The position numbers and the translations under genes were made by a program. A stretch of DNA of 20,000 nt. It comes from an uncultured virus (IMG/VR IMGVR_UViG_3300000116_000008). Its lineage: Duplodnaviria > Heunggongvirae > Uroviricota > Caudoviricetes. Positions 1,222-15,517 of this stretch are shown one piece after another. Below the pieces are notes generated by a model. It did not search any database and was not told the origin of the DNA. It saw only the letters and a list, made by a program, of their open reading frames with translations. The stretch is from the IMG/VR virus record IMGVR_UViG_3300000116_000008; one strand, written 5' to 3'. How positions within the stretch are numbered: the stretch's first letter is position 1; each line of letters opens with the position of its first letter.

Positions 1222-1585
1222 AGATTGGGGTTGGTGGAGCGTATTAGCAGAATACGATAAATCTTGTAAGATTAAAGAGTTAGTTGTCAAACCAAAGACT
1301 AAGCTTTCTTGGCAAAGACATAATTTTAGAAGTGAAGTATGGTTTGTTAGAAAAGGAACTGCTACAATCTACTATAGTGACGATAGGGAAGGATTAAAAA
1401 ATGTTTTTAAAGATACAAAAGTCGAAAAGCAAACTCATCGGATCTCACGATACCAGTGGCATTGCTTGGCTAACGAAACTAATGAAGAAGTGTCTGTTAT
1501 TGAAATTCAGTTTGGCGATGATTGTCGTGAGTCCGACATCATACGCAAGCAGCTTCCACAAGGAAGTTACCTGTTTGGCAACTAA
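1205..1585 (+). CDS. Cupin, mannose-6-phosphate isomerase type II C-terminal-like
   Basis: R.WG.W, LSWQRH..RSEVW, WH.L.N, IEIQFG..C.ESDIIR motifs. Confidence 0.8.
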   Translation: MEKVFRDWGWWSVLAEYDKSCKIKELVVKPKTKLSWQRHNFRSEVWFVRKGTATIYYSDDREGLKNVFKDTKVEKQTHRISRYQWHCLANETNEEVSVIEIQFGDDCRESDIIRKQLPQGSYLFGN

Positions 1586-1991
1586 TATTTACTGGGAAGC
1601 TCGAAATCAAACGGTATCTGGTATGCTAGGGGTCGGAATGGTAACTCGTAATAGAGTCAAGCGACAGACTTTTCCTAACACGTATTGTGGAGTTGTATAC
1701 GAAGCTAAGATGAGTAAGTGGTGGAAAACTGAACACAATAAAGATGTACCTGTAAGAAATAGATGTCAGTTTAGTTGGTACTGTGATGGTACATCTGACA
1801 AAGTACCTGCCTATGATCGTGAAGTTTGGGAAGTAGCAGTTTATTTAGCACGAGGAATATATAATGGTAGATATACTGATAATACTTTTGGTGCTACACA
1901 TTATCATGCTTACTATGTGTCACCTAAATGGGCAAAGCAATTTAGACATACTACTACTATTGATGATCACATTTTTTATAGATATGATTAA
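1482..1991 (+). CDS. Cell wall hydrolase, SleB/Hydrolase_2 family
   Basis: CLA.NIY.EARNQ, V..NRV....FPNT.C.VV, CQFSW.CDG, GATHYHA.YV.P.WA, I..HIFY; signal-peptide-like N-terminus from ATG 1482. Confidence 0.9.
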   Translation: MKKCLLLKFSLAMIVVSPTSYASSFHKEVTCLATNIYWEARNQTVSGMLGVGMVTRNRVKRQTFPNTYCGVVYEAKMSKWWKTEHNKDVPVRNRCQFSWYCDGTSDKVPAYDREVWEVAVYLARGIYNGRYTDNTFGATHYHAYYVSPKWAKQFRHTTTIDDHIFYRYD

Positions 1992-2106
1992 TGTGGGAAA
2001 ACAGATTTCAGTGTAATGAGTTTACTGACTTTACAGATTCTGATGTATAGTCCTCTACTCTTTCAAAATATACTTGCATAACTCTTAATTTTTGAATATA
2101 CTATAT

Positions 2107-2853: not shown

Positions 2854-2910
2854 TATCTGATGTGGCCTTATACTGAAGATGAGAACGACTTCTTATCTAA
2901 ATAAAAAAGC

Positions 2911-2941
2911 GAATGGGGGCTATGATTGTAGCTCCCTTCTT
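2911..2941 (+). terminator. Probable intrinsic terminator of the hsp20 unit
   Basis: GGGGGCTA-TGATTG-TAGCTCCC stem followed by TTCTT; overlaps the -35 of the next promoter (TTGCAT-17-TATTAT, 2940-2968). Confidence 0.55.
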
Positions 2942-2998
2942 GCATTATACCCCAAAATATTGTATTATAAGTTATAAATTTTTAAAAGGAGAATTATT

Positions 2999-3455: not shown

Positions 3456-3529
3456 AGGGGATAAGTGTTATGGTAGCACGGCAGGCTCCAACCCTGTAAG
3501 CGTGGGTTCGACTCCTACATCCCTTGCCA
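3456..3529 (+). tRNA. tRNA-Trp (CCA)
   Basis: Acceptor AGGGGAT/ATCCCTT, G discriminator, encoded CCA end; anticodon arm GCAGG-CTCCAAC-CCTGT; T-loop TTCGACT. Confidence 0.92.
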
Positions 3530-3777: not shown

Positions 3778-4185
3778 ATGAATAAATTAATTAGTTTAAC
3801 AACTATTGGAATCGTAACCTGTTTTGTGAGCACTGCTAATGCAACACAACCTCATTCTGCAAAAGTTAGTGATCATTACAAAGCAGTTATAGTAAAGATA
3901 CCAACAGATTATGAAGTATGCACAAAAGGTAACGGTAAAACAGATTTAGAGAATTTTATTACAGGAGGTATTGTTGGTGGAGTGATTGGTAACAATATTC
4001 CTGGAGAAAAAGGGGGCGGAGCATTGGGTGCTATACTAGGCGGAGCATTAAACGCTGAAGCTAATAAAGGCATAAAATGTACAAAGCACACTCATTATGA
4101 AAAAAAGATGGAAACTATTTACTCACACAGCACTATAACCTTTACTTATGATGGTAGAAGTTATACTGTAAGATTTACAAAGTAG
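3778..4185 (+). CDS. Glycine-zipper domain envelope protein
   Basis: Signal-like N-terminus; GGIVGGVIG...GGALGAILGG glycine zipper. Confidence 0.7.
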   Translation: MNKLISLTTIGIVTCFVSTANATQPHSAKVSDHYKAVIVKIPTDYEVCTKGNGKTDLENFITGGIVGGVIGNNIPGEKGGGALGAILGGALNAEANKGIKCTKHTHYEKKMETIYSHSTITFTYDGRSYTVRFTK

Positions 4186-4261
4186 GTCTCGTAGCTCAAC
4201 TGGACAGAGTATCGGTCTACGAAACCGAGGGTTGCAGGTTCGAATCCTGCCGAGATCACCA
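4185..4261 (+). tRNA. tRNA-Arg (ACG)
   Basis: Acceptor GGTCTCG/CGAGATC-ACCA; D arm GCTC-AACTGGACA-GAGT; anticodon arm TCGGT-CTACGAA-ACCGA; T-loop TTCGAAT. Confidence 0.95.
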
Positions 4262-10767: not shown

Positions 10768-11931
10768 ATGAAAAAAATAATCACAACAAGTCCTCCACCA
10801 TACCCTGTGTTTAAGTCTGAACATATTCAGAAACTTGCTTACAGTATTTATGAAGATAAAAGATCAGTTGATTCTTATTATTTTAATGGTGAGACAGACT
10901 TTGAAAAAGAACTAATTAATTATTTAGGTACAAAACATTGCTTTGTTACTAACTCAGGACATGCTTCTATTTATATTGCCTTAATGGCTGCTGGAGTTGG
11001 TCCAGGCGACGAAGTAATTACTACATCTATATCTTGGGGACAAAGTTTATCTCCAATACTACAACTAGGAGCAATTCCAGTTATGTTAGATATTGATGAA
11101 TCTTTCCAATTAAACTACTTTCATTTAAGTTCTGCTATTACAGATAAAACTAAAGCCGTACTTGTTGTAAATCTTTATGGTGCTAGCGCTAATTTAGATA
11201 AAATTAGAAGTGTTTGTGATGCTCACAAGTTAATTATGATTGAAGATGCTGCTCAAAGCATGGGATTAAAATATAAAAATAAGTATACAGCTACTTGGGG
11301 TCATATAGGTGCTTTAAGTTTTAATTCGGGAAAACTTCTTCCTATCGGCGGAGCAGGTGCAATTGTTACTGACTCTGATGATCTTTGGCACAAGATTTTA
11401 TACTATGGATCAAAGGCTGCACATAAAAGAAAAGGTTTAGTTGGTACTGATTATGAATGTGATGGCATGGATTATACGTTTTTATGTCACCCCTTACTTC
11501 AAGAAATGGGTAGAATTCAACTTCGACAACTATCTAAAATGAACAAAAACAGGAGGGCTAATATTGCTCTTCTACGTAGTTTAATCGACACTACACACTT
11601 TGATTTACAACATATACCTGAGGGATCAGATACTCCTGCGTATATATTTTCTTTTGTGAATAAAACAAAACTTAAGATCGATCAGTTAATAAAACTATTC
11701 AAACAGGTGGGCTTACCTATGTTTAGGTACAATCCGTTTCCACTTTCAAACATTCCTGGTTATACAAGATTTACCAATTACAGATATAGTATGTGCACTA
11801 ACGCTGAGAGACTATCTAAAAATGAACTTTGTATCACGAGTTATAAGTGGTATACTGAAGATACTGATTATATTGAACAGTACGCTAAAGCAATTAACTA
11901 TATTTCTGATGAGGTAAGTAAGAATGTTTGA
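10768..11931 (+). CDS. DegT/DnrJ/EryC1/StrS family PLP-dependent aminotransferase
   Basis: NSG..S, GVGPGDEVIT, GAIPV..DI, VNLYG, IEDAAQS.G, SFNSGK (PLP lysine), GGAG. Confidence 0.92.
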   Translation: MKKIITTSPPPYPVFKSEHIQKLAYSIYEDKRSVDSYYFNGETDFEKELINYLGTKHCFVTNSGHASIYIALMAAGVGPGDEVITTSISWGQSLSPILQLGAIPVMLDIDESFQLNYFHLSSAITDKTKAVLVVNLYGASANLDKIRSVCDAHKLIMIEDAAQSMGLKYKNKYTATWGHIGALSFNSGKLLPIGGAGAIVTDSDDLWHKILYYGSKAAHKRKGLVGTDYECDGMDYTFLCHPLLQEMGRIQLRQLSKMNKNRRANIALLRSLIDTTHFDLQHIPEGSDTPAYIFSFVNKTKLKIDQLIKLFKQVGLPMFRYNPFPLSNIPGYTRFTNYRYSMCTNAERLSKNELCITSYKWYTEDTDYIEQYAKAINYISDEVSKNV

Positions 11932-12739
11932 ATTTTTTGATAAAAGACCTGCTGACATCAATAAACAAATAATTGATAGCTGGGAGGAGTCTAAACTCCA
12001 TCTTGATGCATTCTCTACTGATGAGATAAATCAATTGATTAAAATATTCAAAACTGCACCTAAAACAAATAATATGACCAAACAGAATAAAATGTTTGAT
12101 GATTTTTTAAATAGTGAAAGCGTTGATAAAACTATAACCCCAGGTTCAAGATTTGGACAAGGATCTGGAGCCTGCTCTGCTCCTGTGTGTTGGGACGAAG
12201 GTAGTAAAGAGATATTAGATCCTGTACTTAGAAGATATATTGGCGATTATAAAATAGTTGGTGGAACTTTTAACATTACTATGAATCCTTATCGATTACA
12301 TACTGATAGTGGCAGATTGAAAGAAACTAAAATCCACAAACAAATCATTATACCACTACACTGGGATAAGTCTCTTGATATATACAGTATACTATATGAT
12401 CAAAGATGGACAGGGTGCCAGGCTAGATTTCAACGAGGTATACCTACTACATCTGAAGAAAAATTTACTACATCTACTCACATGACTATAACTGACTATG
12501 AGAATAGTGAGATTCATAATTTAACTAATGCTTCGTTTGACAAGCGAATGTATGAGAGCCTTGTATCTCATATCAACTATGAGAGTTTGTGGGGATTTAG
12601 TGTAGAACTAGCTGCTAAATGGACTCCAAGATCCTTAATCGCTTATGATAGAAGTGTTATTCATAGTTCTTGTCATTTTGCTAGTAGTAAACTAAAAACT
12701 AAACTATTTATTACTTTAGTCACAGAACAAGCTGATTAA
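11924..12739 (+). CDS. Putative 2OG-Fe(II) oxygenase-fold protein
   Basis: LHTD (HxD), IIIPL, D...IHSS and K.FI pattern of a DSBH fold. Confidence 0.55.
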   Translation: MFEFFDKRPADINKQIIDSWEESKLHLDAFSTDEINQLIKIFKTAPKTNNMTKQNKMFDDFLNSESVDKTITPGSRFGQGSGACSAPVCWDEGSKEILDPVLRRYIGDYKIVGGTFNITMNPYRLHTDSGRLKETKIHKQIIIPLHWDKSLDIYSILYDQRWTGCQARFQRGIPTTSEEKFTTSTHMTITDYENSEIHNLTNASFDKRMYESLVSHINYESLWGFSVELAAKWTPRSLIAYDRSVIHSSCHFASSKLKTKLFITLVTEQAD

Positions 12740-12803
12740 TGCCATCATTATATTAAAATTTAATTTTTATGGCGGGGTAATTCGTAAAACTACCACTTTT
12801 CGA

Positions 12804-12832
12804 TTGCCCAAAGGCTAATTTTTTTATATTAT
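12804..12832 (+). promoter_or_regulatory. Sigma70-like promoter driving the non-coding region
   Basis: TTGCCC-17 nt-TATTAT, same type as other phage promoters here; no ORF downstream. Confidence 0.7.
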
Positions 12833-12838
12833 ATATTT

Positions 12839-13310
12839 ATAAAGATTGAAAGAGGCATCATCCTCTGGGCAACAGGGTTAGGTGGTAACGCCAAACGAGT
12901 TTGCGAAGTGTAAAACCAGGTAAATGATCCAACGGAGTCACGGAACGCGTCTCAGCCATCTCTCAACTTTATTGGGAAGTTGCACCCATTAATGCAATAG
13001 CAATCAGCTGAACGAGAGCTTAGAAATGGGCTTCAGTCGAGCCAAGTTATGGATGCGTAAGAGATACCGATGGGCGTTCCTCGAGGGGTCAGGGAGACAT
13101 CGTTAAAAACTCCCCCTTATTCTGTTGTTTCGGTAGGGATAACCAACTTAAAAAAACCCACCACAAAGAACACGGGTCAACCGATTGCCATAAGCTGAAC
13201 AGGAGTCAGGCGAGTACGCGGGATGTAAGATGACAGTAAGTTCACTTTCACGCTTAGCCACCTTTTGAAAATTTTACTCACGAAGATGCTTCGCACGATT
13301 GACCCCCATT
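12839..13310 (+). ncRNA. Putative structured ncRNA(s), three closed domains, unknown family
   Basis: Promoter-driven, no ORF, GC-enriched; closing helices 12839-44/12967-72, 12977-82/13144-49, 13174-80/13299-305; ends in T-tract. Confidence 0.65.
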
Positions 13311-13316
13311 TTTTGA

Positions 13317-13345
13317 TTGCTAACAGGTTTATTTTTTCGTATTAT
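13317..13345 (+). promoter_or_regulatory. Sigma70-like promoter
   Basis: TTGCTA-17-TATTAT. Confidence 0.7.
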
Positions 13346-13420
13346 ATTTATATAAGATAACAAGAGGGAAGGAAAATGCCTCACAACTATTTTCCAACTG
13401 ACTTTTTAAGAGGTGAATAT

Positions 13421-13738
13421 ATGTCAGCTACTACCCAGAAATCAGCGAATTATACTGCTGATATGGTCAATCAAATGACCGAAATGTATAATGAATTAGG
13501 CAATGATGGCATAGACCAGATTGCTGACACTCTCGGCAAGTCCGTAAGGTCTGTCAGAAGTAAACTCGTTCGCGAGGGTGTTTATGTAGCTAGTCCTAAG
13601 AAGACTGCTTCAAAACTAGAGGGTCCTTCTAAAAAAGAGATTCTCAGAGATATCGAGTCTAACGGCTTTGATGTGTCAGGTTTTGAGGGCGCCACGAAAG
13701 CGGCACTCACTAGATTAATGGGTGTAGTAGCTAACTAG
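13421..13738 (+). CDS. T5 A2/D3-like DNA-binding protein
   Basis: NY..E...M...Y, IA..LGKSVRSVRSKL.REGVY, LE.ATK..L pattern resembling T5 A2 (SVRSKL); GAGGTG RBS before ATG 13421. Confidence 0.7.
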   Translation: MSATTQKSANYTADMVNQMTEMYNELGNDGIDQIADTLGKSVRSVRSKLVREGVYVASPKKTASKLEGPSKKEILRDIESNGFDVSGFEGATKAALTRLMGVVAN

Positions 13739-13739
13739 C

Positions 13740-14490
13740 TACTCGCCAAGAGTTTCAGGAGGTGGAACTTATTAGCTCCACCTACTACTGCCATCTTCAC
13801 GATTATTTTATAATCGCATAGGGACGTCTAATAAGAGGAAGTGGCAACCTACCCATAGAGGTAAGAGCTATGGGGTGTTTAAGTACGCGACTTGACACAG
13901 TTGATTCTAGGGGACGGGTTCTCTGAAAACTAGAATCCATGCAGAGGAAAGCTGCGATGACAAATAAAACCCTGTGGTGACTTACACATTCCCAAAGTCG
14001 ATTGTCGGTTAGGCGCTAAGATTTCTAAATCCGACACACTGGCACCCTAAGGTCCCGCAGGTAACGAAAGTTCGTGGACCTAGGTAGTGCCAAAACTGAC
14101 TAGTCGCATGAGGCTATTCAGTAAGTTGAATAGGGGAGACACTGTCAAGTCTTCGGATAAGCACAGAGCCCTATTCATTAAACTCCGACCCTCGACACAA
14201 ACTATATGTTTGATGCTGGTAAGAACTGGAGTTGGGTAAAAGGCGATAGGCATTACGGTTACCTGCTCTGTCCTCTAACAGTCACTGTAAGAGAACATCA
14301 AAACGGACTTGTAATCGCCTTTTTACTTTCAGAGCTTGTCGTAGGCTCTTCTTCTGCAGAGGCGAAACTACGAGTCGGGAAGGGATTAATACAATGCGTA
14401 CCCTTAGTGAGTAGGCGAGGTTGGCGGCAACTCACAACATATTTTACTTTAAAGTTCAAGAAAGGAGCAGCGACGGTTGTTCCTTTCTTG
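13740..14490 (+). ncRNA. Putative large, multi-pseudoknotted ncRNA (~750 nt), unknown family
   Basis: More than 12 local hairpins plus several 7-9 bp long-range complementarities; GC-enriched; no credible ORF; ends at a strong hairpin. Confidence 0.75.
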
Positions 14491-14546: not shown

Positions 14547-15068
14547 ATGACAAACCAAGTATCACGAGATTATGAACCTCTTACTAGTTTAGCACAAAGA
14601 AACACTGAGGATTTAACAGTTGTTCTTGAAAATGAGCCTATCACAACACCTTATAGACGTTCCCAATTACCACAATGGACAATCAGAGATATAATTAAGT
14701 ATGATTATACTTATTACTTTGGGATAGCACTATGCTCAAGTTTAAAACCTACTCAACTTCAAGAAGAGTATGAAGAGTTTAGGACTCTACGTAAGATTCA
14801 TGAGTTAAAGCATGGAGTATTTGACCCTATTATAGTAGACTGTGATTACTTTATTATCTGCGGACACCACAGACATAAAGCGATAAAAGAGCATTATTCA
14901 TATAGCTATCGAACACCTATTATCTGTTTAGAAGGAGTTACCCATGGTTTGGTAACAAGCTTCTACGAGAGTTGTCAATTACATCTTCAAGGTCAACTAG
15001 ATGAGCAAGCAAGAGCAATTGAAGAGTATGATTATGGAAAACTACAAGCTGGAAAGGAAATATTATGA
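14547..15068 (+). CDS. ParB/sulfiredoxin-like N-terminal domain protein
   Basis: LKPTQ, PIIVD....ICGHHR..A motif; AAGGAG RBS. Confidence 0.7.
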   Translation: MTNQVSRDYEPLTSLAQRNTEDLTVVLENEPITTPYRRSQLPQWTIRDIIKYDYTYYFGIALCSSLKPTQLQEEYEEFRTLRKIHELKHGVFDPIIVDCDYFIICGHHRHKAIKEHYSYSYRTPIICLEGVTHGLVTSFYESCQLHLQGQLDEQARAIEEYDYGKLQAGKEIL

Positions 15069-15517
15069 TTTATTTTGCATCTGACCACGGAGGTTATAAG
15101 TTAAAAGAACGACTATTTATGAGACTATCTAAGGAAGGTTATTCAACCTATGATTTAGGTTGTGCAGGTACTCAAATTTCGTGTGATTATCCACTGTTTG
15201 CACAACGCTGTGCTAATGCTATGATCGAGGAGGGCGAAGGATTCGATCCAAATTCATTTGGTGTGCTAATTTGTGGAACTGGAATTGGTATTTCTATGGC
15301 TGCTAATCGTTATAGTCATATTAGAGCTGCTCTTTGTTTAAATCTTACTTATGCTCGACTAGCTCGTGAACACAATAATGCAAATGTACTTTGTTTGCCA
15401 GGTCGCTTTATGGAGTTTGAAGATGCCTACGCAATCTTACACACCTTTTTAAGTACTCAACCTTCTAAAGAAGCTAGACACGCAAGACGATTGGAGCTGA
15501 TGAATGCAATCAACTAA
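15065..15517 (+). CDS. rpiB: Ribose-5-phosphate isomerase B (RpiB/LacA/LacB family)
   Basis: SDHGG, DYP, ICGTGIG.SMAANR, IRAA, AREHNNANVL, RH.RR. Confidence 0.92.
   Translation: MIYFASDHGGYKLKERLFMRLSKEGYSTYDLGCAGTQISCDYPLFAQRCANAMIEEGEGFDPNSFGVLICGTGIGISMAANRYSHIRAALCLNLTYARLAREHNNANVLCLPGRFMEFEDAYAILHTFLSTQPSKEARHARRLELMNAIN

What the first reader, a model, noticed from the sequence alone, without database searches (positions are those of the whole stretch)
12839..13310. Second promoter-driven structured ncRNA (or three tandem small RNAs)
Seen: a dedicated promoter (TTGCCC-17-TATTAT) is followed by ~470 nt with no ORF. The predicted +1 (ATAAAG, 12839) pairs with CTTTAT (12967-72), closing domain 1, which contains GGTG-GTAA-CGCC (GNRA) and CTCTG/CAGGG hairpins. 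Domain 2 is closed by TGGG.AAGTTG (12973-82)/CAACTT..CCCA (13144-60) and contains TACCGA/TCGGTA and AGGGG/CCCCT stems. After an A/C-rich linker, domain 3 is closed by GGGTCAA.CG/CG.TTGACCC (13174/13305) just before a T-tract. Cross-domain complementarities: GGAACGC 12942/GCGTTCC 13074, GTCTC 12949/GAGAC 13094, GCAATC 13000/GATTGC 13183, TTATGG 13047/CCATAA 13188 and AGGTGGT 12880/GCCACCT 13257. Established: T5 makes non-tRNA small stable RNAs of unclear function. Inference: an undescribed stable RNA.
Basis: partly seen in the sequence, partly recalled or inferred. Interest (0 to 1): 0.8.

Follow-up and report, generated by a model that had tools for sequence, protein, structure and literature searches.

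The report
Large structured RNA of marine phages
This 476-base stretch has its own promoter and terminator and encodes no protein; it encodes a conserved, pseudoknotted RNA that many uncultured aquatic phages share, that no catalogued RNA family matches, and whose function is unknown.

Summary
The finding is real, but the window is not T5. It has no DNA match in 50,697 phage records. Its relatives are uncultured aquatic viral and metagenome contigs.

Window 12839-13314 (+) is a non-coding transcription unit. It has a sigma-70-type promoter at 12804-12832 and ends in a helix plus U-tract.

Comparison with 49 distinct 5' domains and 26 distinct 3' parts shows compensatory base changes in these elements:
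- a terminal helix, P0, that starts at the predicted +1;
- helices P2 and P4;
- two pseudoknots, PK1 and PK2;
- a hairpin at 13124-13147;
- the helix that closes the 3' domain.

Rfam (4227 families) gives nothing, even at E<=10, for the window or for longer relatives of 594-1011 nt.

The RNA has two modules, A (12839-13120) and B (13121-13314). In other phages these lie up to about 1.3 kb apart, with ORFs, a tRNA or a promoter-like site between them.

Contigs from RNA libraries of four studies cover the stretch.

The proposed domain-2 closure and all five cross-domain pairings are not supported.

Function is unknown. Most likely it is a trans-acting folded phage RNA, a new family of the GOLLD/ROOL kind.

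The parts
12804..12832 (+). Sigma-70-type promoter: -35 TTGCCC (12804-09), 17-nt spacer, -10 TATTAT (12827-32). Predicted +1 is about 12839.
   Evidence: Consensus scan. TTGC and the -10 are conserved in relatives. The same promoter type recurs at 13317-45; the pattern is found 2 times against 0.10 expected. Helix P0 starts 6-7 nt after the -10 in all subfamilies. No TSS mapping was done.
12839..13314 (+). The whole non-coding RNA, 476 nt, made of module A plus module B.
   Evidence: No ORF longer than 42 aa. 17 of 18 indels among 4 close relatives are not multiples of 3, and substitutions fall 37/30/37 by phase. Complete homologues of 468-1011 nt were found in 33 loci, 29 of them distinct. 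RNA-library contigs cover 12852-13301 and bridge 13120.
12839..12849 (+). P0, 5' strand (AUAAAG.UUGA). It pairs with 12963-12972 and closes the 5' domain.
   Evidence: 44 distinct strand pairs. Cognate duplex energy is -8.43 against -5.05 kcal/mol non-cognate, and 0 of 2000 permutations are as good. Different subfamilies carry different complementary sequences.
12852..12865 (+). P1 hairpin: GAGG/CCUC with loop CAUCAU (12856-61).
   Evidence: Paired in 49 of 49 sequences, but invariant and part of the search motif, so there is no covariation. The loop takes part in PK1.
12866..12918 (+). P2 (12866-68 / 12916-18), P3 (12869-71 / 12902-04), a variable hairpin containing GGUG-GUAA-CGCC (12881-92), and the conserved joiner 12905-15.
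   Evidence: P2 pairs read CG 27 / UA 22 and AU 27 / GC 21 of 49. The variable hairpin differs in sequence between subfamilies, with GNRA or UUCG loops.
12924..12929 (+). PK1, 3' strand (AUGAUC). It pairs with the P1 loop 12856-61.
   Evidence: Five pairs are invariant. The sixth reads C-G 28, G-C 9 and C.C 12 of 49. A loop beginning with G never occurs with a partner ending in G. The window itself has the C.C mismatch.
12935..12953 (+). P4 hairpin: GAGUC / G.UCUC with the invariant loop ACGGAA (12940-45).
   Evidence: 4 of 6 columns show changes on both sides (AU 35 / UA 11 / GC 2, and others). A U.U mismatch is conserved in 40 of 49.
12974..12997 (+). M1, a probable H-type pseudoknot: GGG 12974-76 / CCC 12985-87 and UUGCA 12980-84 / UGCAA 12993-97.
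   Evidence: A candidate of this topology is found in 53 of 72 loci, 29 of them distinct. The second stem varies (GCUC/GAGC, CCAC/GUGG, ACUAU/AUAGU, CUACC/GGUAG). The first stem is CCC..GGG in long forms and GGG..CCC here. Support is moderate; 19 loci do not fit.
12998..13120 (+). Middle of module A; structure unresolved. Candidate helices are CUGAA 13008-12 / UUCAG 13032-36 and GGGAG 13092-96 / CUCCC 13110-14. Also holds the palindrome CCUCGAGG at 13079-86.
   Evidence: Aligns weakly to the long forms (nhmmer). The helices are invariant among the 4 close relatives, so they are untested.
13124..13147 (+). First hairpin of module B: GUUG 13124-27 / CAAC 13144-47 plus UU 13128-29 / AA 13141-42. 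The loop holds GGUAGGG at 13132-38.
   Evidence: 38 loci give 11 distinct strand pairs, all complementary. 0 of 2000 permutations are as good. RNAalifold columns 5-27 and 6-26 show three pair types each.
13148..13162 (+). A-rich linker (13148-56) and PK2 3' strand CCCACC (13157-62), which pairs with the loop 13132-38.
   Evidence: The variable position pair reads G:C in 25 loci, U:A in 4 and A:U in 9: 38 of 38 are Watson-Crick. 13134:13160 is U:A in the window and L043, and A:U in L049 and L036. The energy permutation test alone is weak (134 of 2000).
13165..13170 (+). A-tract (AAAGAA) that pairs with the terminal U-tract 13309-14.
   Evidence: In 21 main-type homologues the pair at columns 50-176 reads U-A 12 / A-U 9, and a G.U wobble is present in 21 of 21. 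For the window this is inferred by homology.
13174..13305 (+). 3' domain. Closing helix Pa: 13174-83 / 13296-13305. Pb: 13203-06 / 13276-79. Pc: 13209-11 / 13257-59. Pd: 13218-22 / 13249-53.
   Evidence: Pa: 19 distinct strand pairs, -13.86 against -10.65 kcal/mol, 0 of 2000 permutations. L047 carries GGGAGAG/CUCUCCC where the window has GGGUCAA/UUGACCC. Pb: all 4 pairs changed on both sides in L043. Pc and Pd were read by eye.
13309..13314 (+). U-tract; predicted 3' end.
   Evidence: Conserved after the closing helix in all 33 complete homologues found by script and paired to the A-tract. The 3' end has not been mapped.
13317..13345 (+). Context: the next promoter of the same type (TTGCTA-17-TATTAT), for the gene of a 105-aa DNA-binding-like protein (13421-13738).
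   Evidence: Module B lies upstream of this gene in 10 of 10 related loci that have enough upstream sequence.

Best explanation
Window 12839-13314 (+) is a stand-alone non-coding transcription unit of an uncultured aquatic phage. Host-type RNA polymerase starts at about 12839 from the promoter at 12804-32. Transcription ends at a terminator-like structure that is part of the RNA fold: A-tract, long closing helix, U-tract at 13309-14.

The RNA has two conserved modules:
- Module A (12839-13120) is a 5' domain closed by helix P0. It contains P1-P4 and pseudoknot PK1, followed by a probable second pseudoknot (M1) and less well defined hairpins.
- Module B (13121-13314) is a hairpin whose loop pairs across an A7 linker with CCCACC (PK2), followed by a branched 3' domain closed by helix Pa.

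In related phages A and B are contiguous or up to about 1.3 kb apart. Here they are fused and are probably one transcript.

Shown: conservation, covariation of the named helices, absence of coding signal, absence from Rfam, and presence in RNA libraries.

Inferred: the transcript ends, and the mode of action. The RNA most likely acts in trans through its folded shape, as a scaffold or decoy for a host or phage factor, as has been proposed for the phage RNAs GOLLD and ROOL. It is unlikely to act as a cis regulator or an mRNA.
For: Homologues:
- The motif scans found 16 viral loci, 69 metagenome loci and 2 genome loci. Five of these 87 share only the motif and are chance hits.
- 49 distinct 5' domains were aligned (A2).

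Covariation in the 5' domain:
- 89.1% of cells are paired against 83.5% in shuffles.
- The covariation score is 0.164 against 0.074, reached by 0 of 500 shuffles.
- The structure is best at slide 0.
- P2 shows two fully covarying pairs.

Other helices:
- P0, the module B hairpin and Pa each gave 0 of 2000 permutations as good as the cognate pairing.
- The PK2 variable pair is Watson-Crick in 38 of 38 loci, with three pair types.
- RNAalifold on 21 module B sequences predicts 25 pairs, 12 of them with compensatory changes.

Strand: the pair-type table shows 32 G.U/U.G cells against 1 C.A cell. GNRA and UUCG loops lie on the + strand.

Not coding.

Not a known family: Rfam at gathering score and at E<=10 on the window, at E<=1 on 8 relatives, and at E<=10 on one full long form all gave nothing for this RNA. 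ARAGORN finds no tRNA or tmRNA in it.

Expression: 19 RNA-labelled runs hold part of it. Contigs of 4 RNA runs from 4 studies cover 12852-13301, and three of them bridge the A/B junction. A contig of depth 481 carries a relative's 5' domain.
Against: - Thermodynamic stability is ordinary (z = +0.15, -1.67 and +0.04).
- The transcript ends and strand are not measured. The RNA-library data are unstranded contigs, RNA libraries can hold DNA, and the runs were chosen because they hold this stretch.
- One contig (13134-13432, depth 4.5) runs across the U-tract into the next unit.
- The homologues were collected with a 20-nt motif. P1, the 5' strands of P2 and P3 and one strand of PK1 are therefore invariant by ascertainment.
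- The window's own PK1 has a C.C mismatch and its P4 a U.U mismatch.
- The middle region, 12998-13120, is structurally unresolved.
- The PK2 energy test is not significant on its own (134 of 2000).
- Modules A and B are separated by ORFs in some relatives. 'One RNA' therefore holds, at most, for this subfamily.
- Nothing here bears on function. The trans-acting scaffold or decoy role is an analogy.
Confidence: 0.72

Rival explanations
1. The stretch gives two or three independent small RNAs: the 5' domain of about 134 nt, the rest of module A, and module B of about 195 nt. They are released from one precursor by processing and act separately.
For: - P0 closes the 5' domain on its own.
- Modules A and B lie about 1.1-1.35 kb apart, with ORFs between, in L018/L005, L024/L003, L025 and L088. 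L035 has a module B upstream of a module A.
- Long forms carry a promoter-like TTGCAT-17-TATACT just before module B, and L084 has a tRNA-Met there.
- In L018 a terminator-like hairpin follows the long module A.
Against: - In the window and its 3 close relatives no promoter, terminator or tRNA lies between A and B.
- Three RNA-library contigs bridge 13120.
- No processing site is known.
- The two modules co-occur on every contig where enough sequence is held on both sides.
Confidence: 0.2
2. It is a cis-acting element. Module B, or the whole RNA, would be a leader, insulator or terminator that controls the downstream gene of the 105-aa DNA-binding-like protein.
For: - Module B lies upstream of that gene in 10 of 10 related loci with enough upstream sequence. 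In 8 of them, as in the window, it ends about 100 nt before the gene.
- Its 3' end looks like a terminator.
- One RNA-library contig reads through into the next unit.
Against: - The downstream gene has its own conserved promoter between the U-tract and the gene.
- In L002 and L008 ORFs lie between module B and the gene.
- In L017, L030 and L084 tRNA-like genes follow the RNA.
- A plain terminator would not need 476 nt with covarying pseudoknots.
Confidence: 0.06
3. It is not a functional RNA. It would be a decayed gene, a chance structure, or a DNA-level element such as an origin or a packaging site.
For: - Ordinary folding energy.
- Raised GC compared with the flanks, which could mark foreign DNA.
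Against: - Compensatory changes occur in at least six helices, including pseudoknots.
- G.U wobbles are far commoner than C.A: 32 cells against 1.
- RNA tetraloops are present.
- A promoter and a U-tract frame the structure exactly.
- There is no reading frame, and indels are not in threes.
Confidence: 0.03

Closest known systems
GOLLD RNA (large phage and prophage ncRNA)
   Same: Both are phage-encoded, large, multi-pseudoknot and of unknown function. Both have conserved end regions joined by a variable linker that can hold a tRNA (here L084). Members of both occur in aquatic metagenomes. The GOLLD features are taken from passages of bioRxiv 10.1101/2024.12.08.627333 read.
   Different: The Rfam library gives no match at gathering score or at E<=10. 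The window RNA is 476 nt and its relatives 468-1011 nt, whereas many GOLLD members exceed 800 nt. Here the 5' domain is the most conserved part, whereas in GOLLD the 3' region is. tRNAs lie next to or inside only a few loci. Oligomer formation is untested.
ROOL RNA
   Same: Both are phage or prophage ncRNAs of several hundred nucleotides with multiple pseudoknots, no known protein partner and unknown function.
   Different: No match in the Rfam library. The environment differs: aquatic phages here. The architecture is modular, with separable parts.
Small stable non-tRNA RNAs of T4 and T5 (recalled, from no call)
   Same: Both are phage-made, non-coding, stable-looking RNAs of unknown function, encoded among small early genes and near tRNA genes.
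   Different: There is no DNA similarity to any of 50,697 phage records, whether or not these include T4 and T5. This RNA is much larger and has its own promoter and terminator. The window is not T5.
Candidate structured RNAs of viruses catalogued from IMG/VR (Fremin et al. 2023, PMC10690425)
   Same: That work screened the same kind of data, viral contigs, by covariation. This family could be among its 10,006 unnamed candidates (abstract and outline read).
   Different: Not verifiable here. The motif was absent from the supplementary files that could be searched. The two alignment archives and one table were not searched. No function or name would follow from a listing there.

Membership tests
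Any Rfam 15 family (including GOLLD, ROOL, OLE, HEARO, IMES, group I/II introns, RNase P, tmRNA, 6S, riboswitches, small ribozymes) | Match to the family's covariance model at or near the gathering score | tested here: not met
   Window at gathering score: only 2 tRNAs, elsewhere in the window. Window 12700-14300 at E<=10: 4 chance matches far below gathering, and none lies wholly within 12839-13314 on the + strand. Eight relatives at E<=1: only flanking tRNAs and chance matches. One full long form at E<=10: 0 matches.
GOLLD | Universally conserved 3' region, less conserved 5' region, and a linker that may hold tRNAs (as described in 10.1101/2024.12.08.627333) | tested here: inconclusive
   A variable linker with a tRNA is present in L084. 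But the 5' domain is at least as conserved as the 3' part, and there is no model match.
GOLLD / ROOL | Self-assembly into homo-oligomeric cages | not testable with these tools
   No RNA 3D or assembly tool was available. The only hint is a conserved palindrome, CCUCGAGG at 13079-86, in the 4 short forms.
tRNA / tmRNA | Cloverleaf or tRNA-like domain with tag reading frame | tested here: not met
   ARAGORN finds none in 12839-13314 and no tmRNA in 44 related loci.
Cis-regulatory leader (riboswitch or attenuator) | Lies in the 5' UTR of the regulated gene, with no promoter between the element and the gene | tested here: not met
   A conserved promoter at 13317-45 lies between the U-tract and the next gene. 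In some relatives tRNAs or other ORFs follow instead.
Protein-coding gene or small-ORF cluster | A conserved open frame, indels in multiples of three, and third-position bias | tested here: not met
   The longest ORF is 42 aa. 17 of 18 indels are not multiples of 3, and substitutions fall 37/30/37 by phase. Codes with TGA=W or TAG=Q open no frame across the stretch.
Intrinsic terminator (3' end only) | A stem followed by a U-tract, optionally with an upstream A-tract | tested here: met
   Closing helix Pa, then a U-tract, with an A-tract that covaries with it (U-A 12 / A-U 9). The simple scanner misses it because the 'loop' is a 112-nt domain. Termination itself was not measured.

The most novel reading that the evidence does not exclude
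This would be a third, independent class of large 'ornate' phage RNAs, abundant in aquatic phages. Its invariant unpaired nucleotides (ACGGAA loop, GAAAGUUAAA joiner, A7 linker) and three pseudoknots would build either a self-assembling RNA particle or a catalytic or ligand-binding core. Its modules A and B could then work as separate pieces or fused, making it a natural split RNA.
Probability: 0.12. Interest if true: 0.9.

Novelty: new variant of a known kind. Interest (0 to 1): 0.72.

Why it matters
Large, highly structured bacterial and phage RNAs of unknown function are rare. Each one found so far (OLE, GOLLD, ROOL, raiA) has led to unexpected biology.

This family is widespread in uncultured aquatic phages and is present in metatranscriptome assemblies of several studies. 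It has an unusually clear anatomy: a promoter, a helix that starts at +1, at least two covarying pseudoknots, and a terminator built into the fold.

Its short 476-nt form and its separable modules make it a practical object for structure probing and cryo-EM. They also allow a direct question: what do phages gain from such RNAs early in infection?

It also corrects the annotation frame, since the window is not T5.

Tried and rejected
- Thermodynamic test: the MFE is no better than shuffles on either strand or per module.
- Known families: Rfam at four settings gave nothing. ARAGORN gave nothing.
- Cultured relatives: megablast and blastn of the window RNA and of a long form, and tblastn of the neighbouring 105-aa protein and of a 212-aa protein, found no match in 50,697 phage records.
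- Nearest held virus record, G001: no match to the stretch.
- Covariance model R1 of the 5' domain: it finds only 12839-12965 in the window (107.8 bits). Its 12.3-bit match in phage Melnitz lies inside the ribonucleotide reductase gene and lacks P1, so it is chance.
- Bacterial genomes: the two motif hits, L099 and L100, share only the motif. No host was found.
- PK2 by duplex-energy permutation: not significant (508 of 2000 with a mis-cut loop; 134 of 2000). It was replaced by the position-specific count.
- Strand from G.U against A.C in the 5' domain: uninformative, 2 against 4.
- Weak nhmmer match of the long form at window 2909-2958 (E = 0.014): this is a terminator hairpin plus promoter, not a copy.
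- Proteins: the ORFs of about 200 aa and 54 aa found between or after the modules in relatives have no Pfam or PHROG family. The 105-aa protein has only PHROG 1725 'DNA binding protein', with nothing in Pfam, NCBIfam or PDB sequences.
- RNA-library contigs: no contig of the four runs lay on 12000-12839, the upstream gene. The runs were chosen for the RNA stretch and contigs cannot rank genes, so this absence is not used as evidence.
- Alternative genetic codes open no frame across the stretch.
- Earlier notes of this scan: nothing was on file.
- Literature: three full-text searches found no description of this family. The supplements of PMC10690425 could be searched only in part.
Full report
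**What is in the sequence.** This covers the TTGCCC-17-TATTAT promoter-like site at 12804-12832, the complementary hexamers at 12839-44 and 12967-72, the GGTG-GTAA-CGCC hairpin at 12881-92, GGGTCAA.CG at 13174-83 against CG.TTGACCC at 13296-13305, the T-run at 13309-14, and the five cross-domain complementarities. No ORF longer than 42 aa overlaps the stretch. GC is 45-47% here against 31-36% in the genes upstream.

The sequence on its own is not remarkable:
- The minimum free energy equals that of shuffles: z = +0.15 for the + strand and -0.99 for the - strand. By module, z = -1.67 for 12839-12972 and +0.04 for 13121-13314.
- Long-range perfect complementarities are as frequent as in shuffled sequence: 6-mers 27 against 21.3 +/- 5.8; 7-mers 5 against 5.4 +/- 3.1.

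**Where the window comes from.** It is not T5.
- Megablast and blastn of 12700-13400 against 50,697 phage records find nothing.
- tblastn with the neighbouring 105-aa protein and with a 212-aa protein also finds nothing.
- The best cultured similarity is a cell-wall hydrolase, 48% identical to that of Methylophilales phage Melnitz (Kyanoviridae). T5-like endolysins follow at 38%.
- Relatives are uncultured viral and metagenome contigs.

**Homologues.** An alignment of the window with five loci found through the neighbouring gene showed conserved blocks separated by a hairpin of changing sequence. A 20-nt motif from that alignment found 16 viral loci, 69 metagenome loci and 2 genome loci. Five of these 87 (L037, L063, L087, L099, L100) share only the motif and are chance hits. 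L071 is near-identical to the window.

Three loci (L043, L049, L036) are 84-86% identical to the window over 12794-13347 and have the same short form. Most others are longer. Complete RNAs from +1 to the U-tract were found in 33 loci, 29 of them distinct, with lengths of 468-1011 nt.

**Not coding.** Among the four short forms, 17 of 18 indel runs are not multiples of three. The 104 variable columns fall 37/30/37 by codon phase. Reading TGA as W or TAG as Q opens no frame across the stretch.

**Structure of module A (12839-13120).** On 49 distinct 5' domains (A2) I counted a structure read from the alignment.
- P1: GAGG/CCUC, 12852-55 / 12862-65. It is invariant and part of the search motif, so it is uninformative.
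- P2: 12866-68 / 12916-18. Two of its pairs covary fully (C-G 27 / U-A 22; A-U 27 / G-C 21).
- P3: 12869-71 / 12902-04. Invariant. It carries a hairpin whose sequence differs between subfamilies and ends in GNRA or UUCG loops.
- PK1: the P1 loop 12856-61 pairs with 12924-29. Five pairs are invariant. The sixth reads C-G 28, G-C 9 and C.C 12; the window has the C.C.
- P4: 12935-39 / 12949-53, with the invariant loop ACGGAA. Four columns change on both sides.
- Overall, the covariation score is 0.164 against 0.074 in shuffles (0 of 500 reach it), and the structure beats all slid versions.

The 5' end pairs with the segment after P4 (helix P0). Across 44 distinct strand pairs the cognate duplex averages -8.43 kcal/mol against -5.05 for non-cognate pairs, and 0 of 2000 permutations do as well. 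Subfamilies carry quite different complementary sequences at this place. P0 starts 6-7 nt after the -10 element everywhere.

After P0 comes a probable H-type pseudoknot (M1, 12974-97). It is seen in 53 of 72 loci, with a varying second stem. The remainder, 12998-13120, aligns only weakly to the long forms and is unresolved.

**Structure of module B (13121-13314).**
- The hairpin 13124-27 / 13144-47 has 11 distinct strand pairs in 38 loci, all complementary (0 of 2000 permutations).
- Its loop GGUAGGG (13132-38) pairs with CCCACC (13157-62) across an A-rich linker; this is PK2. A duplex-energy permutation test is weak (134 of 2000) because all variants are G/C runs. The one variable position pair, however, is G:C in 25 loci, U:A in 4 and A:U in 9, so 38 of 38 are Watson-Crick. 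In addition, 13134:13160 is U:A in the window and L043 but A:U in L049 and L036.
- The 3' domain is closed by 13174-83 / 13296-13305 (helix Pa). There are 19 distinct strand pairs, at -13.86 against -10.65 kcal/mol, with 0 of 2000 permutations as good. L047 has GGGAGAG/CUCUCCC where the window has GGGUCAA/UUGACCC.
- Inside, Pb (13203-06 / 13276-79) has all four pairs changed on both sides in L043.
- RNAalifold on 21 main-type module B sequences predicts 25 pairs, 12 of them with compensatory changes. It also shows that the conserved AAAG after PK2 pairs with the terminal U-tract (U-A 12 / A-U 9), with a G.U wobble in 21 of 21.
- In that table G.U/U.G cells number 32 against one C.A. Together with the tetraloops, the promoter and the U-tract, this puts the RNA on the + strand.

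- AAGTTG/CAACTT, the 'domain 2' closure, keeps only 3 of 6 pairs in each of L043, L049 and L036. CAACTT is in fact the 3' strand of the module B hairpin, and CCCA is part of PK2.
- TACCGA/TCGGTA is not compensated.
- CTCTG belongs to P1 and P2.
- None of the five cross-domain pairings shows a compensatory change. AGGTGGT/GCCACCT falls to 3-4 of 7 pairs and GGAACGC/GCGTTCC to 3-4 of 7.

**Modularity.** nhmmer profiles of the 5' domain and of module B find one copy of each in the window.
- In L018/L005, L024/L003, L025 and L088 the two modules lie about 1.1-1.35 kb apart, with ORFs of about 200 aa between them. These ORFs have no Pfam or PHROG family.
- L035 has a module B upstream of a module A.
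- Long forms have a promoter-like TTGCAT-17-TATACT just before module B, and L084 has a tRNA-Met there.
- The long forms also hold an extra block of about 200 nt that the window lacks.
- Module B lies upstream of the gene for the 105-aa DNA-binding-like protein (PHROG 1725) in 10 of 10 related loci with enough upstream sequence. That gene has its own promoter of the same type (13317-45).

**Known families.** Rfam 15 gives nothing for this RNA at any setting: the gathering score on the window, E<=10 on 12700-14300, E<=1 on eight relatives, and E<=10 on one complete long form. ARAGORN finds no tRNA or tmRNA in it.

The closest described things are GOLLD and ROOL. Both are phage RNAs with multiple pseudoknots and unknown function, often found near tRNAs, and GOLLD has a linker that can hold tRNAs. 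I read passages of bioRxiv 10.1101/2024.12.08.627333 for this. The resemblance is in kind and layout, not in sequence or model.

A catalogue of 10,006 unnamed viral candidate RNAs (PMC10690425; abstract and outline read) may include the family. Its alignment archives could not be searched. Three full-text searches found no description.

**Expression.** 19 RNA-labelled runs hold part of the stretch. I laid the contigs of four RNA runs from four studies on the window.
- X3 covers 12852-13156, X1 covers 12894-13301 and X4 covers 12920-13260. All three bridge the A/B junction.
- X2 covers 12906-13088 and 13134-13432. The second piece crosses the U-tract, at depth 4.5.
- A contig of depth 481 carries a relative's 5' domain.

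These are unstranded contigs from runs chosen for this stretch, and RNA libraries can hold DNA. They show presence in RNA libraries, not transcript ends or levels.

**Conclusion.** The stretch is a real, conserved, structured non-coding RNA with its own promoter and a terminator built into its fold. It belongs to a family not in Rfam and is made of two separable modules that are fused in this phage.

How it works is inferred. The many invariant unpaired bases and the pseudoknots argue for action through a defined three-dimensional shape, in trans. The own promoter of the next gene argues against a cis leader.

Noticed in passing
window 13745-14205: A second GC-rich stretch without an ORF, just after the 105-aa gene. 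It is conserved in L043 (87%) and L036 (75%), with hairpins that change in a compensatory way (for example CCCAUAG..CUAUGGG against CCCACAA..UUGUGGG). RNA-library contigs of depth 115, 57 and 16 cover it. It is probably another structured RNA. Rfam gives nothing.
   Followed up: partly
window 13346-13420, and relatives: The transcript from the next promoter also begins with a GAGG-loop-CCUC hairpin after an AAUGAG-like start, like P1 of the RNA. The promoter and the start of the transcript look duplicated.
   Followed up: no
window 13376 and 13421: The ATG at 13376 is ATA in L043, L049 and L036, and relatives encode 105 aa. The gene therefore most likely starts at 13421, not at 13376 (which would give 120 aa). 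Many long-form relatives have an extra ORF of 52-55 aa between the promoter and this gene.
   Followed up: partly
window 2074-2102, 2941-2969, 2916-2937: Further promoters of the same TTGC-17-TAT type (TTGCAT-17-TATACT and TTGCAT-17-TATTAT), and a terminator hairpin. These suggest one promoter class for this gene block.
   Followed up: no
L084 1620-1696; L017 844-912; L030 388-461; L018: tRNA genes lie inside the linker of the RNA (L084, tRNA-Met) or directly after it (L017, L030, and weakly L018). In the window the two tRNAs (3456-3529 and 4185-4261) are 8.6 kb away.
   Followed up: partly
window 13079-13086: An 8-nt palindrome, CCUCGAGG, is invariant in the four short forms. It could be a self-pairing (kissing) site, but this was not tested.
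   Followed up: no
window 1401-1991, 2165-2581, 10768-11931, 15065-15517: Auxiliary-type genes surround the RNA: a cell-wall hydrolase, Hsp20, a DegT-family aminotransferase and RpiB. The closest cultured hydrolase is that of OM43 phage Melnitz (Kyanoviridae, 48%).
   Followed up: partly
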